DNA of 64,000 nucleotides from Candidatus Methanomethylicaceae archaeon GD_Cm_T35_P0_bin.15 (GCA_038801785.1 JAULTD010000003.1:218021-282020), one strand, 5' to 3'; positions 39,577 through 49,535 are shown, counted from the first letter of the stretch. Translations and numbers: made by a program. The notes: generated from the letters alone by a model not told the origin.

Positions 39577-39653
39577 GCCCCAGTGGCTCAGCCCGGTAGA
39601 GCGACGGTTTCGTAAACCGTTGGTCAGGGGTTCAAACCCCCTCTGGGGCTCCA
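39577..39653 (+). tRNA. tRNA-Thr(CGU), CCA encoded; integration target
   Basis: GCCCCAG-TG-GCTC-AGCCCGGT-AGAGC-G-ACGGT-TTCGTAA-ACCGT-TGGTC-AGGGG-TTCAAAC-CCCCT-CTGGGGC-T-CCA. Confidence 0.92.
39607..39653 (+). repeat. attL (47-bp direct repeat, 3' half of tRNA-Thr)
   Basis: GTTTCGTAAACCGTTGGTCAGGGGTTCAAACCCCCTCTGGGGCTCCA is identical to 49444-49490. Confidence 0.9.
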
Positions 39654-40538
39654 GGAACCTTTTTCAGTGAAAAAGCTTCACCAAAAAGCCTCCCTGACGG
39701 CAGAGATTTTGAACAATCTAATAGTGTGATGGTACAGTACAGCGAGGCGGAAGTTGATGGTTTTTCGAGGATACTCGCTCGGAAGCAGCGCACTAAGCGG
39801 ACGATCCACGGCCACGCCAGCCTGCTGAGGCGCTTCCTGGAGGAGTTCGACGGGAAAGAGGTGGGTACTGATGAAGTGCAGGGATACCTCTCGAAGTTCG
39901 GCAACAGGAACACCTACCGGAACAACCTCTCGACGCTGAAGGTCTACTTCAGGGAATGCCTGAAGCGCCCGGACATCATGCAGGACTTTACCTTCCCTGC
40001 TGTGACTATATCGCCCAAGTCGATACCGGACAAGCGCGACCTCAGGAGGTTCTACGGTGCCATCAATGATGCCATGGAAAGGGCGCTCTTCCTGATGTTC
40101 GCCTCATCCGGTCTGAGGAGGCAGGAGCTCCTCGACCTGAAGATGGGCGGGATAGACCTCAGGAAGAGGATGCTGATACCGAAGGCTGAGGGCGATACCA
40201 AGCATACGTGGGTCAGCTTCTACAACCCCGAGGCGGAGGCGGCGCTCAGGGAGTACCTGGAGGTGAGGGGCAAGGGGAAGAGGCTGTTCGTCCACTCCGA
40301 GAAGGAAGTGAAGAGGATATGGGGCGGCGCGAGGGAAAAGACGGGGCTCAGCATCACTCCCCAGGTCCTGAGGGAGTGGTTCGCCGAAGAGATGTCGAAC
40401 CTGAAAGTGCCGGAGCGGTACATAGATGCCTTCTGCGGCAGGGTCCCCCGGTCTGTCTTGGCCAGGCACTACTCGGACTACCGCCCCAACAAGCTGAAAC
40501 GGATCTACGACAAAGCGGGGATTAGGGTCTTATCATAA
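39654..40538 (+). CDS. Tyrosine recombinase, C-terminal catalytic fragment int(C)
   Basis: Catalytic-domain motifs (SGLRRQELLDL, ITPQVLREWFA, LARHYSDY). The frame is open from the base after attL (39654). Apparent internal starts are GTG 39726 and ATG 39729. Confidence 0.85.
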   Translation, partial: GTFFSEKASPKSLPDGRDFEQSNSVMVQYSEAEVDGFSRILARKQRTKRTIHGHASLLRRFLEEFDGKEVGTDEVQGYLSKFGNRNTYRNNLSTLKVYFRECLKRPDIMQDFTFPAVTISPKSIPDKRDLRRFYGAINDAMERALFLMFASSGLRRQELLDLKMGGIDLRKRMLIPKAEGDTKHTWVSFYNPEAEAALREYLEVRGKGKRLFVHSEKEVKRIWGGAREKTGLSITPQVLREWFAEEMSNLKVPERYIDAFCGRVPRSVLARHYSDYRPNKLKRIYDKAGIRVLS

Positions 40539-40586
40539 AATCTGCCCGTTGGACTCTATCTTGACTCTTTGAATTACACTGCCTCT

Positions 40587-41168
40587 TCAAGGACCTTTAT
40601 TCAAAGCAATGTAGGTGTTCTCGGTCTTGTCGCCCAGCTGCCACAACATGACTCCGCTTATTAGGAAAGGGTGGAGCACGGTATCGTAAGTCCATACTTT
40701 CCCATCGTCTGACCTGGCAGTTATGCTGCGTATGTCCCACATGACGACCGGTGCCAGATCCCTAGCGCCGCTTACGTTGTACGACTGGTTGTAGATGATC
40801 ACGCTCCCGCCGTTGGTGAGGTTGTAATCAGTCGTAGTACTGGGACCGAAGGTTGGGGGCTCGGGGACGTCCTTGCCGAGGATTATGACCGATCCTATCG
40901 TCCTGAAGGTCATTGATCTTACATCGGCTCCTGTAAATGAAGCGTTGATAGAGGCATCGATAGTCTCGCTGCTGGCCCTGCTGAATGTTAAAGCAAGGGA
41001 TAAAGTGCCCAGAGCTTGATTATCAGTATCAGTCATCACTATGTTTGAGGTCTGGGTAACCGAACCAGAGAACGAGTAGGGATGGAAGTAGAGCAGGTAG
41101 ATGCCCACGGAGCTCGAGACAACGATTATAGCCACTAAAAGGAGGAGGAAAGCACGGGATCTCTTCAT
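40587..41168 (-). CDS. Membrane-anchored/secreted hypothetical protein (element cargo)
   Basis: N-terminal MKRSRAFLLLLVAIIVVSSSVGIYLLYF anchor followed by a beta-rich S/T/N-rich ectodomain. Last gene of a three-gene minus-strand operon. Confidence 0.55.
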   Translation of the reverse strand: MKRSRAFLLLLVAIIVVSSSVGIYLLYFHPYSFSGSVTQTSNIVMTDTDNQALGTLSLALTFSRASSETIDASINASFTGADVRSMTFRTIGSVIILGKDVPEPPTFGPSTTTDYNLTNGGSVIIYNQSYNVSGARDLAPVVMWDIRSITARSDDGKVWTYDTVLHPFLISGVMLWQLGDKTENTYIALNKGP

Positions 41169-41224
41169 CTTACTCGATAACTCCTGACACTTTCGTTTCA
41201 GATTAAAAAAGGGGGAGGGGTATT

Positions 41225-42394
41225 TTAACTTGTAGTCAAGTATGCTTCGTCATAGTCTACGAGGAAACCGGTGTCGGTGTATATCGATGCATCTACTCTG
41301 ACCAACAATTCCGCCCCATAGTATGTATTGAAGTAAGACTCGCACTCAACTTCCCAATATGCTGCGCCAGCCATTGCATAGCCTAGCCAACTATATCCTT
41401 CGCCGGAATAAGGCATTTGATCTAACTGACCTATTCCCTGTTTTAGTACTGGGCTATAGACCTCGCCTATAGTCTTGGTATTGGTGTAGATAGCCTTTCC
41501 ATTAATAGCGACGTATATATTTGCTTGATAACTTGTGCAGAACATGTACGGACCGTCGTAGAAGTGGTAGAGCCTGATGTCTGCATTAACGGAACTCATG
41601 TAGTAGAGGTCCGATATATATGCATAGAGATATGTTTGGTCAATTAGGTCAGGAGGGTTTTCCCTCAGTATCTGGCCTTCACGATAAGCCATGGCTACAG
41701 GGTTATCGATGACCTTGTCATATCCGAGTAGATTGTCTATCACAACCTTTTCAAGGATGGCCAAAGGTTCTGTGAACTTGGCGTATGCTGCCGATGCCTC
41801 CTTTAATTGATCAGCAGAGTATGCCTGTGAAATACCGCTTAGTGCCGCCCTCAGATTGGCATAGTGCTGGGACAGGCTCTGAGGGAACGTCTGGTATATC
41901 CTGTCCTGTGTATTGGTCGCAGGATGCATCCTATCGTCCGAAACCATTGTCGTCTCGGCATGGGTATATGTACCATCAGGCCCGGGTATCAAAATCGTAC
42001 CCACGCTAAAGGAAGATGCACTGTTGAGTTCGATGGCAAGCAATACGAACTCGTAAGTGTTCGAGTGAATTATTTTGGCGAAAGTTACGCTGTAACCGTC
42101 GATCACCCCGCTGAATATTACATCTGTATCGACTATTGGTTCTGCCTCGAAACCGATCATCATTCCAGGTATGTAGCATTCGAACTGTGACTGATTGCCA
42201 TCTTGCATGGATGTAGCATCGGGCGCCTGATAGATGTCATGTACCACCATCAGTTGTTTATGTTCCGCACCAAGCTCTTTAGTATCCACGTCGTCGTTGC
42301 CAGCAATAACACCCGGTATTAAAAATACAGGTGTTAGCATTAGCACCATCAGCATTAGTGCTTTTCCACAACCTGCTTGTTTTGTGTACATCAT
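41225..42394 (-). CDS. Secreted hypothetical protein (element cargo)
   Basis: Start moved to ATG 42394 (MMYTKQAGCGKALMLMVLMLTPVFLIPGVIAG signal), downstream of the upstream gene's stop. No family recognised. Confidence 0.55.
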   Translation of the reverse strand: MMYTKQAGCGKALMLMVLMLTPVFLIPGVIAGNDDVDTKELGAEHKQLMVVHDIYQAPDATSMQDGNQSQFECYIPGMMIGFEAEPIVDTDVIFSGVIDGYSVTFAKIIHSNTYEFVLLAIELNSASSFSVGTILIPGPDGTYTHAETTMVSDDRMHPATNTQDRIYQTFPQSLSQHYANLRAALSGISQAYSADQLKEASAAYAKFTEPLAILEKVVIDNLLGYDKVIDNPVAMAYREGQILRENPPDLIDQTYLYAYISDLYYMSSVNADIRLYHFYDGPYMFCTSYQANIYVAINGKAIYTNTKTIGEVYSPVLKQGIGQLDQMPYSGEGYSWLGYAMAGAAYWEVECESYFNTYYGAELLVRVDASIYTDTGFLVDYDEAYLTTS

Positions 42395-49013: not shown

Positions 49014-49141
49014 CCGTGGACCTCCCTGCGGACCTTCCTCACTACGCCGGGGTACTCCTGGTCGATGGCGCGCCGCAGCTCTGAGGCCGCCTCCCTCGTG
49101 GCGGGCTGGAGCGGGTCTTTCAGGGTCGGATGTGAAGGCAT
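49010..49141 (-). CDS. Small hypothetical ORF (43 aa), translationally coupled to 48393-49013
   Basis: MPSHPTLKDPLQPATREAASELRRAIDQEYPGVVRKVRREVHG. Its TGA overlaps the downstream ATG (ATGA). Below the track cutoff. Confidence 0.3.
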   Translation of the reverse strand: MPSHPTLKDPLQPATREAASELRRAIDQEYPGVVRKVRREVHG

Positions 49142-49222
49142 AGCGCTTCCCGTTCCTGTCTGTAAGCGGGAGGGTAAAAGGACTCGGGGATGGTCGTTAC
49201 TGCGGGAGGGCAGGGCGAAAAT

Positions 49223-49236
49223 ATGAGTGCACTCAT
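49223..49236. promoter_or_regulatory. Perfect 14-bp palindrome ATGAGTGCACTCAT (candidate operator of the int(N)/divergent promoter region)
   Basis: Lies in the 163-bp divergent intergenic region, about 70 nt upstream of ATG 49305. Confidence 0.4.
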
Positions 49237-49304
49237 CAATATTTACCCCAGTAAACCACCGATAACCTCTTCCGTCTCTTCTGACATACGGTAGCCGAGC
49301 ACTT

Positions 49305-49535
49305 ATGCCCAGGAAAGGCTACACCACGATTACTGTACCATCAGACCTCTACGAGCGCATCAGGGCGATGGCAGAGGATGAAAGTAGTTCAATAGCCGAC
49401 TGCCTGAGGATGGTTTTTGATGAACCTTTTTCCAAAAAGGTTCGTTTCGTAAACCGTTGGTCAGGGGTTCAAACCCCCTCTGGGGCTCCACCAACCTCAG
49501 CTATTTTCCGAGCCCGCACAGCTCCTCCCGCATAG
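49305..49535 (+). CDS. Integrase N-terminal fragment int(N) with ribbon-helix-helix-like fold; reads through attR
   Basis: MPRKGYTTITVPSDLYERIRAMAEDESSSIADCLRMVF shows an RHH-like strand-helix-helix pattern. From codon 47 the ORF is encoded by the att core and then host flank. Confidence 0.65.
   Translation: MPRKGYTTITVPSDLYERIRAMAEDESSSIADCLRMVFDEPFSKKVRFVNRWSGVQTPSGAPPTSAIFRARTAPPA
49444..49490 (+). repeat. attR (47-bp direct repeat)
   Basis: Identical to 39607-39653. The flanks diverge immediately upstream, and downstream after CCA. Confidence 0.9.

What the first reader, a model, noticed from the sequence alone, without database searches (positions are those of the whole stretch)
39607..49535. 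Integrated element whose integrase gene is split by integration (SSV-type) at tRNA-Thr(CGU)
A perfect 47-bp direct repeat (39607-39653 and 49444-49490) comprises the 3' half of tRNA-Thr(CGU). The ORF starting at 49305 ends a codon exactly at the last base of the att core (186 nt). The sequence after attL (39654 onward) has no stop for 24 codons and runs in frame into the tyrosine-recombinase ORF at 39726. After excision and circularisation, 49305-49490 plus 39654-40538 would form one 1071-nt ORF of 356 codons: an RHH-like N-terminus, att-encoded linker and catalytic domain. This is the int(N)/int(C) partition known from SSV1-type elements, described mainly in Crenarchaeota and a few Euryarchaeota. 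In this SepRS/Mbh/high-G+C lineage it would be worth documenting. In the integrated state the upstream frame hits TAG at 39597-39599, so full-length integrase cannot be made.
Basis: partly seen in the sequence, partly recalled or inferred. Interest (0 to 1): 0.8.

Follow-up and report, generated by a model that had tools for sequence, protein, structure and literature searches.

The report
Split-integrase mobile element in tRNA-Thr
A 9.8-kb mobile element sits in a threonine tRNA gene of a methanogen-related archaeon (Methanomethylicia), and inserting there cut its own integrase gene in two; this "suicidal" design is already known from heat-loving archaea, here seen in a new host lineage and a large, apparently undescribed integrase family.

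Summary
An exact 47-bp direct repeat (39607-39653 and 49444-49490), the 3' part of tRNA-Thr(CGU), brackets a 9,837-bp lower-G+C insert. Joining 49305-49490 to 39654-40538 gives an uninterrupted 356-codon tyrosine recombinase.

The split-gene (type I, "suicidal") reading is strongly supported:
- A natural contiguous homolog (P0017) has the same N-terminus and an internal tRNA-derived peptide.
- A second element in Ca. Methanosuratincola petrocarbonis has the same layout at the orthologous tRNA. It has a clean empty-site control: 99.7% identity over 1,542 bp across the junction.
- Dozens of Int(C)-length homologs read through tRNA 3' halves.
- The structure model places the att codons in a disordered linker between an RHH domain and the core-binding plus catalytic body.

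It is not a member of the SSV family proper. It lacks the SSV1 N-terminal domain, scores only weakly on PF16795, and has the tetrad R..QxxR..Y. Its body is closer to pNOB8 integrase than to SSV1 or pT26-2.

I rate it a new member of a known kind, of moderate interest.

Extras:
- Specific palindromes flank the attP core.
- A 2.8% divergence patch is confined to int(C) between otherwise near-identical copies.
- The cargo includes a deoxyhypusine synthase.

The parts
39577..39653 (+). Host tRNA-Thr(CGU), intact after integration; its 3' 47 nt form attL
   Evidence: ARAGORN. An identical tRNA is present and unoccupied in other Methanomethylicota contigs L008-L010.
39607..39653 (+). attL core: the 47-bp exact direct repeat, from the anticodon loop to the CCA end
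39655..39679 (.). Palindrome abutting the core on the int(C) side (GAACCTTTTTcagtgAAAAAGCTTC); a candidate accessory binding site of attP
   Evidence: The half-site GAAMCTTTTT occurs only 3 times in 64 kb, against 0.04 expected, and all three abut att cores. An equivalent palindrome is present in L004, L001 and L014.
39654..40538 (+). int(C): codons 63-356 of the reconstructed integrase. It comprises the linker remainder, the SAM-like core-binding domain and the catalytic domain. As an integrated-state ORF it is callable from GTG 39726 or ATG 39729.
   Evidence: Pfam PF00589, PF13495 and PF16795. AF2 pLDDT is above 90 from residue about 87. R217, K245, Q299, R302, H334 and Y335 are conserved in the family.
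40587..43709 (-). Three cargo ORFs (193, 410 and 430 aa), in the lowest-G+C part of the insert; no family assignment
43960..44943 (-). Cargo: DUF7347/ArsR-type winged-helix protein (327 aa), paralog of 45901-46731
   Evidence: Pfam. The paralogs are 49% identical. A homolog is present in the related remnant element of L014.
45015..45731 (+). Cargo ORF of 238 aa; no family
45901..46731 (+). Cargo: second DUF7347/ArsR-type winged-helix protein (276 aa)
46992..48161 (-). Cargo: deoxyhypusine synthase paralog (375 aa as called in databases, start at 48119)
   Evidence: PF01916, E 8e-91. NCBIfam matches are below the equivalog cut-offs. It is 79% identical to a Ca. Methanosuratus DHS, against 63-68% to most Methanomethylicia DHS.
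48393..49013 (-). Cargo ORF of 206 aa whose C-terminal 72 aa are a NuoI/ferredoxin-like fragment resembling host ORF 63135-63536
49142..49304 (.). Divergent intergenic region upstream of int, conserved with the natural intact-gene contig L001
   Evidence: 76.6% identity over 244 bp, spanning the intergenic region and the start of int; includes GTAGCCGAGCACTTATG, identical in both sequences
49305..49535 (+). int(N): the 76-aa ORF in the integrated state. Codons 1-62 (49305-49490) belong to the intact gene: an RHH-like domain plus the att-encoded linker.
   Evidence: Homologous stand-alone ORFs are P0121-P0126. AF2 shows a strand-helix-helix at residues 5-39, pLDDT about 88.
49422..49443 (.). 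Palindrome abutting the core on the int(N) side (GAACCTTTTTccAAAAAGGTTC)
49444..49490 (+). attR core: the second copy of the 47-bp repeat, a partial tRNA

Best explanation
A 9,837-bp mobile element is integrated into the host tRNA-Thr(CGU) gene of a Methanomethylicia archaeon.

**How it works.** It entered by tyrosine-recombinase site-specific recombination. The partners were the 3' 47 bp of the tRNA (attB) and an identical 47-bp attP core inside the element's own integrase gene. The core occupies codons 47-62. These lie in a disordered linker between an N-terminal ribbon-helix-helix (RHH) domain and the core-binding plus catalytic body.

**Consequences of integration.**
- The tRNA is regenerated at attL.
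- The integrase gene is split into int(C) at the attL side and int(N) at the attR side.
- Excision and circularisation would rebuild the 356-codon gene.

This is the type I, "suicidal" strategy of SSV, pTN3 and pT26-2 elements.

**Shown:** the repeat, the frames, natural contiguous homologs, a sister element with an empty-site control, and conserved catalytic residues.

**Inferred:**
- Crossover occurs in the anticodon-loop region.
- The two palindromes flanking the attP core are accessory sites, possibly bound by dimers of the RHH domain.
- Excision now needs full-length integrase supplied in trans, or weak activity of Int(C).
- The element may or may not still be mobile.
For: - **Sequence anatomy:** exact 47-bp repeat, tRNA and frames; lower G+C in the insert.
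- **Domains:** recombinase domains plus weak RHH on the joined protein.
- **Natural intact gene:** P0017 on L001 has the same N-terminus, an internal SGVQIPPSAP peptide and a shared upstream region.
- **Sister element:** L004 has a 45-bp repeat at the orthologous tRNA-Thr(CGU), a 6,269-bp insert and an in-frame reconstruction. The empty site in L007 matches at 99.68% over 1,542 bp across the junction.
- **Stand-alone Int(N) ORFs:** P0121-P0126. L014 carries a 35-bp repeat identical, over 31 of its 35 bp, to the tRNA-derived core inside L001's intact gene.
- **Family pattern:** tRNA read-through N-termini in many Int(C) homologs, and R217/K245/R302/Y335 conserved in at least 119 of 121.
- **Exhaustive search:** 230 representative clusters at E<=1e-30. 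About 12 of the top 150 are full-length and show RHH, then a tRNA peptide, then the body.
- **Structure:** AF2 pLDDT 85; RHH at 5-39, disordered 40-75, body 87-356; XerA and lambda-Int-like fold.
- **References:** SSV1 att lies at a comparable place in its gene. pT26-2 Int has a similar layout.
- **Palindromes:** the half-site occurs only at the att junctions, 3 found against 0.04 expected.
Against: - No circular attP junction and no same-species empty attB for this particular element was found. The collections searched did not contain the relevant samples.
- The window protein's own RHH Pfam scores are below threshold (16.4 and 15.3 bits). The RHH assignment rests on homologs and the model.
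- The body is closer to the non-split pNOB8 integrase than to SSV1 or pT26-2.
- Int(C) retains complete core-binding and catalytic domains and a start codon, so the split may not be fully inactivating.
- No replication or virion genes were recognised, so the element class is unknown.
- Nothing has been tested experimentally.
Confidence: 0.9

Rival explanations
1. Classical (pNOB8 or lambda-type) integration. The 270-aa ORF next to the tRNA is the complete integrase. The 76-aa ORF at the other end is an independent CopG-like regulator or excisionase. The in-frame join is coincidental.
For: - The body is closest to the pNOB8 integrase (hhalign scores 133 and 122), and pNOB8-type plasmids are the best tblastn hits.
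- Int(C) contains full core-binding and catalytic domains.
- Most database homologs are about 270 aa.
- One Int(N) homolog is annotated as a CopG antitoxin.
Against: - Contiguous natural proteins fuse both parts, with the tRNA-derived peptide between them.
- The join is in frame in a second element as well.
- Int(C) ORFs across the family stay open into the tRNA.
- The repeat core of L014 lies inside the intact gene of L001.
Confidence: 0.04
2. The element is a fixed, immobile relic (a domesticated island). The split integrase halves are decaying pseudogenes and no excision occurs any more.
For: - The same insertion is present in two independent assemblies.
- No circular form was found.
- No replication or structural genes were recognised.
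- Relatives show decay: L014 has lost Int(C), and L018 has a frameshifted int(C).
- dN/dS in int(C) is 0.53.
Against: - The repeats are perfect, 47/47, and the reconstructed ORF is intact with all catalytic residues.
- Both int(C) alleles avoid invariant positions.
- The two copies are 99.99% identical outside int(C), so the insertion, or its spread, is recent.
Confidence: 0.35
3. The cluster of differences in int(C) is an assembly mosaic. Reads from a co-occurring related integrase, episomal or in another strain, were merged into one of the two contigs. It is not a real allele in the integrated copy.
For: Both sequences are metagenome assemblies. Twenty of 22 differences fall in 712 bp, which is the kind of region where related elements share sequence.
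Against: The L002 allele is reproduced exactly, joined to the tRNA 5' flank, on a second contig from a sister sample (L003). The window allele is on record from an NCBI assembly. Both alleles are full-length and in frame.
Confidence: 0.3

Closest known systems
pT26-2-type suicidal integrases of Thermococcales, Archaeoglobales and Methanosarcinales (Badel et al. 2020, PMC7253208)
   Same: - attP lies inside the int ORF, the target is the 3' part of a tRNA gene, and integration splits the gene into int(N) and int(C).
- The layout appears similar: an N-terminal RHH-like segment, a tRNA-derived peptide, then the body. The hhalign alignment spans columns 10-344, and the CcdA hit is weak at 15.3 bits.
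- Both match phrog_5127.
- In both, the integration module is associated with unrelated cargo.
   Different: - The bodies are distant: hhalign score 61 and about 22% identity. tblastn did not recover pT26-2 at E<=1e-3.
- PF16795 scores 187 bits for pT26-2, 29.6 for the window protein and 27-53 for family members tested.
- Position II of the tetrad is Q here.
- The hosts are uncultured Methanomethylicia, Bathyarchaeia and Nitrososphaeria rather than hyperthermophilic Euryarchaeota.
SSV1/SSV2 integrase (Fuselloviridae), the archetype of type I integrases
   Same: - The gene is split, and the att core of 44-47 bp runs from the tRNA anticodon region to the 3' end.
- The att core lies at a comparable position in the gene: codons about 64-78 of 335 in SSV1 against 47-62 of 356 here.
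- Both share the C-terminal motif GR.P..VL..HY.
   Different: - The SSV1 N-terminal domain PF07935 is absent; an RHH takes its place.
- PF16795 scores 207 bits for SSV1 against about 30 here.
- The tetrad is R..KxxR..Y in SSV (PMC5861418) against R..QxxR..Y here.
- No fusellovirus genes are present in the element.
pNOB8-type integrases of Sulfolobales conjugative plasmids (type II, non-split)
   Same: This is the closest core-binding plus catalytic body: hhalign probability 99%, 261-262 aligned columns running to the C-terminus. These plasmids are also the best tblastn hits, at 24-25% identity over 78% of the query. Both target tRNA genes.
   Different: In the pNOB8 type the att site lies outside the gene, which stays intact on integration (PMC5861418, PMC3293823). 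The tetrad is R..YxxR..Y. The N-terminal region is larger and unrelated.
NitEve-E3 cryptic integrated element of Nitrososphaera evergladensis (Krupovic et al. 2019, PMC6563490)
   Same: It is a cryptic integrated element outside hyperthermophiles whose "SSV1-like" integrase is split on integration. The present family includes hits from Nitrososphaerota.
   Different: I did not retrieve the NitEve-E3 sequence, so whether it belongs to the same family is untested. That element encodes MCM; this one has no recognised replication gene.

Membership tests
Type I ("suicidal") archaeal integrase elements, a mechanism class | The attP core lies inside the integrase ORF, so integration separates int(N) and int(C) at opposite ends of the element | tested here: met
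   In-frame reconstruction. Natural contiguous homologs carry the tRNA-derived peptide internally. A replicate element has an empty-site control.
Type I ("suicidal") archaeal integrase elements, a mechanism class | Exact direct repeats of about 40-50 bp matching the 3' part of a tRNA gene, with the tRNA regenerated at one end | tested here: met
   47/47 bp; tRNA-Thr(CGU) intact. The size range of 40-50 bp is given in PMC8371274.
Type I ("suicidal") archaeal integrase elements, a mechanism class | Tyrosine-recombinase catalytic residues are present in the reconstructed protein | tested here: met
   R217, K245, R302, H334 and Y335 are conserved in 115-121 of 121 homologs. The fold matches XerA and lambda Int.
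Type I ("suicidal") archaeal integrase elements, a mechanism class | Demonstrated integration and excision: circular attP form, empty attB, or in vitro activity | not testable with these tools
   No attP or empty attB for this element was found in the searchable collections.
SSV (fusellovirus) integrase family sensu stricto | Strong match to Phage_integr_3 (PF16795) over the whole catalytic domain | tested here: not met
   29.6 bits over residues 291-336 only, against 207 bits for SSV1 and 27.8 for pNOB8 Int. The weak hit therefore does not discriminate.
SSV (fusellovirus) integrase family sensu stricto | SSV1 ORF D-335 N-terminal domain (PF07935) | tested here: not met
   Absent. The N-terminus is RHH/CcdA-like instead.
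SSV (fusellovirus) integrase family sensu stricto | Catalytic tetrad R..KxxR..Y (PMC5861418) | tested here: not met
   Position 299 is Q in the window protein and in 112 of 121 homologs; it is K in only 7.
pT26-2-like suicidal integrase cluster (Badel 2020 network criterion: BlastP identity above 25% over 60% of the protein) | Pairwise similarity to Int-pT26-2 at the network threshold | tested here: not met
   pT26-2 is in the plasmid collection but was not hit by the window protein at E<=1e-3. hhalign gives about 22% identity and score 61. P0111 against pT26-2 by BLASTP finds only a 40-aa C-terminal motif.
pT26-2-like suicidal integrase cluster (Badel 2020 network criterion: BlastP identity above 25% over 60% of the protein) | Layout: N-terminal DNA-binding or multimerisation segment, att-encoded peptide, then the body | tested here: inconclusive
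   hhalign aligns the N-termini with good local confidence, and pT26-2 Int has a tRNA-like GGIRTRD peptide. Its CcdA hit is below threshold.
pNOB8-type (type II) integrases | att site outside the gene; integrase gene intact after integration | tested here: not met
   The gene is split here.
pNOB8-type (type II) integrases | Catalytic tetrad R..YxxR..Y (PMC5861418) | tested here: not met
   Q at position II.
Archaeal MGE-integrase superfamily (SSV, pT26-2, APSV1 and pNOB8; phrog_5127) | Best PHROG match is phrog_5127, and the C-terminal GR.P..VL..HY motif is present | tested here: met
   Scores on phrog_5127: 76.9 bits for the window protein and 89-93 for P0017 and P0111. References score 404 (SSV1), 238 (pT26-2), 230 (APSV1) and 132 (pNOB8). 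The motif is aligned.

The most novel reading that the evidence does not exclude
The window element may be one visible member of a large, so far undescribed clade of suicidal integrases. Its features:
- Architecture: RHH, then an att-encoded disordered linker, then core-binding and catalytic domains.
- Tetrad R..QxxR..Y.
- At least 230 clusters at 50% identity.
- It pervades non-hyperthermophilic, uncultured archaea: Methanomethylicia, Bathyarchaeia, Nitrososphaeria and Aenigmatarchaeota.

Its catalytic body is nearer to the non-split pNOB8 type than to SSV or pT26-2. This would mean one of two things. Either the split-gene design is older and broader than the "hyperthermophile adaptation from a single event" view, or it spreads by grafting an RHH+att module onto different recombinase bodies.

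Two further features could be handles on how such integrases are maintained and regulated. One is the 2.8% allele patch confined to int(C) in otherwise 99.99% identical genomes. The other is the pair of specific palindromes flanking attP, possibly arm-type sites for RHH dimers.
Probability: 0.4. Interest if true: 0.6.

Novelty: new member of a known kind. Interest (0 to 1): 0.45.

Why it matters
**Biology.** Suicidal integrases are presented in the literature I could read as essentially a trait of hyperthermophiles. The listed exceptions are five Methanosarcinales integrases and one thaumarchaeal element (PMC7253208, PMC8371274, PMC6563490).
- This case extends the host range to Methanomethylicia, a methanogenic lineage of Thermoproteota for which I found no mobile-element description.
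- The same design is common in metagenomic archaea.

**Annotation.** Int(C) halves are routinely called as complete "tyrosine-type recombinase/integrase". Int(N) halves are called "hypothetical" or "CopG antitoxin". Integrated elements of this type, and their boundaries, are therefore being missed.

**Open question.** The near-isogenic pair (window and L002), which differs almost only in int(C), is a natural test case for the published idea that split integrase halves evolve fast and are renewed by recombination.

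Tried and rejected
- **Second element at tRNA-Thr(UGU):** I looked at 62076-62152. There is no integrase or repeat, only a 10-bp resemblance after the tRNA.
- **Circular or empty forms:** I searched the 47-bp core in metagenome and genome collections. 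Only more distant Methanomethylicota with an unoccupied identical tRNA came back.
- **IMG/VR scan:** a scan with the family alignment gave no confirmed relatives, so I found no link to recognised viruses.
- **Source contig:** exact look-ups of the window's Int(C) and DHS were not on record.
- **PF16795 as evidence of SSV membership:** rejected, because pNOB8 Int scores the same.
- **Diversity-generating (adenine-directed) mutagenesis for the int(C) patch:** rejected. The changes are 12 transitions and 8 transversions at all four bases.
- **Simple relaxed selection for the patch:** rejected. Neutral sites elsewhere in 20 kb are unchanged (2 differences), and P is about 8e-26 for this degree of clustering.
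- **Shared backbone genes:** among related elements only the DUF7347 winged-helix protein recurs.
- **Cargo function:** the Pfam, PHROGs and NCBIfam scans gave no function for five cargo ORFs.
- **Rfam on the L014 junction:** nothing useful; the target tRNA there is probably intron-bearing and is missed by ARAGORN.

Full report
**1. The observation**

The repeat finder reports one long direct repeat in 38000-51000. It is exact over 47 bp (39607-39653 and 49444-49490), and identity stops on both sides. ARAGORN places tRNA-Thr(CGU) at 39577-39653 (+), so the repeat runs from the anticodon region to the CCA end.

- The ORF from ATG 49305 reaches the last base of the right-hand core after exactly 62 codons.
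- From 39654 there are 24 stop-free codons in frame with the recombinase ORF at 39726-40538.
- The in silico join is a 1071-nt ORF of 356 codons.
- In the integrated state, the frame upstream of int(C) closes at TAG 39597-39599.
- The bracketed 9,837 bp has 51.6% G+C, against 59.5% and 58.4% in the flanks.

Every coordinate in the finding is correct.

**2. The reconstructed protein**

Pfam finds Phage_integrase (residues 191-326), a SAM-like core-binding domain (99-168) and a short Phage_integr_3 match. It also finds sub-threshold RHH_5 and RHH_1 at residues 7-35.

An AlphaFold2 model built on 127 sequences has mean pLDDT 85.4.
- Residues 5-39 form a strand-helix-helix, the RHH topology, at pLDDT about 88.
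- Residues 40-75 are disordered, with pLDDT below 50.
- Residues 87-356 are a confident two-domain recombinase.

The best solved matches are archaeal XerA, lambda Int(75-356) and Tn1549 Int.

The att-encoded codons 47-62 fall inside the disordered linker. That is a sensible place to tolerate a sequence dictated by a tRNA.

**3. Is the split real?**

Four independent lines say yes.

(a) *A natural contiguous gene.* P0017 (353 aa, contig L001) begins MPRKGFKSITVPSDLY. It carries SGVQIPPSAP, a translated tRNA T-arm, internally, and continues into the same body. Its upstream region is 76.6% identical to the window's region upstream of 49305, including the identical GTAGCCGAGCACTTATG.

(b) *A sister element with an empty-site control.*
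- In Ca. Methanosuratincola petrocarbonis (L004), a 45-bp exact repeat at the orthologous AIRS-tRNA-Thr(CGU) locus brackets a 6,269-bp insert.
- Its reconstruction is again in frame, with the N-terminus ...PKKGFNCITVPSDLFECIRKEAE.
- With the insert removed, L004 aligns to a Methanosuratus MAG (L007) at 99.68% over 1,542 bp straight across the junction.
- Reciprocally, L007 has a related integrase at tRNA-Thr(UGU), where L004 is empty.

(c) *Stand-alone Int(N) ORFs.* P0121-P0126 are 63-99 aa, and several are RHH_5-positive. In L014, one of them sits at the end of a 2.9-kb remnant bracketed by a perfect 35-bp repeat. Over 31 of its 35 bp that repeat is identical to the tRNA-derived core found inside L001's intact gene.

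(d) *The family-wide pattern.*
- Of 121 long homologs, most start near the equivalent of 39726.
- Dozens carry N-terminal read-through peptides that are translated tRNA 3' halves: PGFEPG, RDLNPRPPECK and GPDSDRRPSARQA.
- An exhaustive profile search of 1.84 billion representatives gives 230 clusters at E<=1e-30.
- About a dozen of the best 150 are full-length.
- These show CcdA/CopG-type RHH (above the Pfam threshold in 6 of 10), then an internal tRNA-like peptide, then the body.

**4. How it most likely works**

Integration is recombination between the 47-bp identity in attP and the tRNA. By analogy with SSV1 and with tRNA-targeting integrases generally (established knowledge, not tested here), I expect strand exchange in the anticodon-loop region.

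The tRNA is regenerated at attL. int(C) is left reading out of the tRNA, and int(N) is left reading into attR. Full-length integrase cannot be produced from the integrated copy.

Int(C) does retain complete core-binding and catalytic domains and a GTG/ATG start. Truncated Int(C) of SSV1 and SSV2 keeps weak in vitro activity, according to the review PMC8371274. Residual activity, or complementation by a related incoming element, is therefore plausible.

A new anatomical feature is a pair of palindromes that directly abut the core in the reconstructed attP:
- GAACCTTTTTccAAAAAGGTTC on the int(N) side;
- GAACCTTTTTcagtgAAAAAGCTTC on the int(C) side.

The half-site GAAMCTTTTT occurs three times in the 64-kb window, against 0.04 expected, and only at these places. 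An equivalent palindrome follows the core in L004, L001 and L014. One precedes it in L001.

I infer, and have not shown, that these are accessory sites. Dimers of the RHH domain are the obvious candidate binders: four protomers would give two dimers for two palindromes. A role as a tRNA terminator (the T5 run) is an alternative.

**5. Comparison with known families**

*Mechanism class.* This is type I, "suicidal" (She 2001/2002, as cited in PMC7253208 and PMC8371274).

*Family membership is a separate question.*
- SSV1 Int scores 207 bits on PF16795 and has its own N-terminal domain, PF07935. The window protein scores 29.6 bits, which is no better than pNOB8 Int at 27.8.
- The published diagnostic tetrads are R..KxxR..Y for SSV and R..YxxR..Y for pNOB8 (PMC5861418). 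This family has R..QxxR..Y, with Q in 112 of 121.
- On one and the same profile, pNOB8 Int scores 122-133 (99%), against 61-62 for SSV1 and pT26-2 Int.
- tblastn against plasmids finds pNOB8-type plasmids first and does not find pT26-2.
- phrog_5127 matches the protein end to end, but it is a broad archaeal family. Scores are SSV1 404, pT26-2 238, APSV1 230 and pNOB8 132 bits, against 77-93 here.
- pT26-2 Int does seem to share the layout of an RHH-like N-terminus followed by a tRNA-like peptide.

The element therefore works like SSV and pT26-2 elements. It belongs to the same superfamily but is not a member of the SSV, pT26-2 or pNOB8 families as those are defined.

**6. Host and element**

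*Host.* Flanking genes are syntenic with Methanosuratincola and Methanosuratus MAGs: BacA, Usp, radical SAM, AIRS, then tRNA-Thr. AIRS is 57-64% identical to named Methanomethylicota. The host is a Methanomethylicia lineage.

*Cargo.*
- Three unassigned ORFs lie in the lowest-G+C stretch.
- Two paralogous DUF7347/ArsR-type winged-helix proteins are present.
- There is a deoxyhypusine synthase.
- A 206-aa ORF ends in a NuoI/ferredoxin fragment resembling a host gene at 63135-63536.
- No replication, conjugation or virion gene was recognised. Operationally it is a cryptic integrated element.
- Related elements share only the integrase and, in L014, the DUF7347 protein. The integration module thus travels with varied cargo.

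**7. The int(C) patch**

A JGI contig (L002) carries the same element in the same context at 99.894% identity over 20,810 bp.
- All 22 differences are inside the element, and 20 lie in 712 bp of int(C). P is about 8e-26 for this degree of clustering.
- Within int(C), dS is 0.036 and dN/dS is 0.53.
- Replacements avoid invariant residues and favour residues common in the family.
- The L002 allele recurs on a second contig, joined to the tRNA flank. The window allele is on record from an NCBI assembly.

Uniform relaxed selection cannot explain this. An allele exchange with a related integrase would fit the recombination model of Badel et al. (PMC7253208). An assembly mosaic is the other candidate. 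Reads are needed to decide.

**8. Novelty and verdict**

The mechanism is known. In the papers I could search, suicidal integrases are reported from:
- Sulfolobales and Desulfurococcales;
- Thermococcales and Archaeoglobales;
- Methanococcales;
- five Methanosarcinales integrases;
- one thaumarchaeal element (PMC7253208, PMC8371274, PMC6563490).

I found nothing on Methanomethylicia mobile elements. That is absence from this library only.

The finding is real and correctly interpreted. It is a new member of a known kind, in a new host lineage. It belongs to a large integrase family that appears not to have been recognised as suicidal. Interest is moderate, at 0.45.

Noticed in passing
window 39694-40405, compared with L002 and L003: Two copies of the element plus flanks are 99.894% identical over 20.8 kb. 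Twenty of the 22 differences are packed into 712 bp of int(C) (dS 0.036, dN/dS 0.53), and none is in the host flanks. This could be allele exchange with a related integrase or an assembly mosaic.
   Followed up: partly
window 39655-39679 and 49422-49443: Two palindromes built from the half-site GAAMCTTTTT abut the att core on both sides of the reconstructed attP. The half-site occurs nowhere else in 64 kb (3 found, 0.04 expected). Similar palindromes are present in L004, L001 and L014.
   Followed up: partly
window 46992-48161 (-); L018 and L019 at 9615-11179: The element carries a deoxyhypusine synthase. It belongs to a distinct tier of longer DHS proteins (75-79% identical), against 63-68% for most Methanomethylicia DHS. 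In Methanosuratus MAGs this paralog is a 1.57-kb indel between RpiA and the 5' side of tRNA-Thr(UGU), with 74.5% DNA identity to the window segment. This suggests capture of a host gene.
   Followed up: partly
window 48393-49013 (-), compared with 63135-63536 (-): The C-terminal 72 aa of the element's 206-aa ORF are 49% identical to a host NuoI/ferredoxin-type subunit, and 84 bp of DNA are 87% identical (48462-48545 against 63195-63278). This looks like a captured gene fragment fused to an unrelated N-terminus.
   Followed up: partly
window 43960-44943 (-) and 45901-46731 (+): Two divergently oriented paralogs (49% identical) of a DUF7347/ArsR-type winged-helix protein give a 184-nt imperfect inverted repeat (44650-44833 and 45900-46083). 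A homolog is the only cargo gene shared with another element of the family (L014).
   Followed up: partly
L014 7212-10178 (GCA_038870675.1): A 2.9-kb remnant is bracketed by a perfect 35-bp repeat that shares 31 bp with the tRNA-derived core inside L001's intact integrase gene. It keeps Int(N), a DUF7347 protein and V4R proteins but has lost most of int(C). The target tRNA is about 120 nt, probably intron-bearing, and is missed by ARAGORN.
   Followed up: partly
L018 and L019, about 14054-18655: A third related element sits at tRNA-Thr(CGU) in Methanosuratus MAGs. Its int(C) is frameshifted and its cargo is an ABC transporter. This shows repeated use of the same tRNA by elements with different cargo, and decay of the split halves.
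   Followed up: partly
P0123 and P0001-P0120 (database annotations): Int(N) halves are annotated as "CopG family antitoxin" or "hypothetical". Int(C) halves are annotated as complete tyrosine recombinases, some with N-termini that are translated tRNA. This is a systematic annotation artefact for this family.
   Followed up: partly
window 61946-62005: A 14-bp tandem repeat (AACCGCAGGGATAG, 4.3 copies, 97% matches) lies about 70 bp upstream of tRNA-Thr(UGU). Its function is unknown.
   Followed up: no
window 62153-62162: The 10 bp after tRNA-Thr(UGU) (GGGACCTTTT) resemble the element sequence after attL (GGAACCTTTT). This may be chance, a shared tRNA terminator, or the scar of an earlier integration. 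No integrase follows.
   Followed up: partly
window 41225-43709: Two large unassigned ORFs (410 and 430 aa) overlap by 41 nt in the lowest-G+C part of the insert (44-52%). They have no homolog in Pfam, PHROGs or NCBIfam.
   Followed up: no
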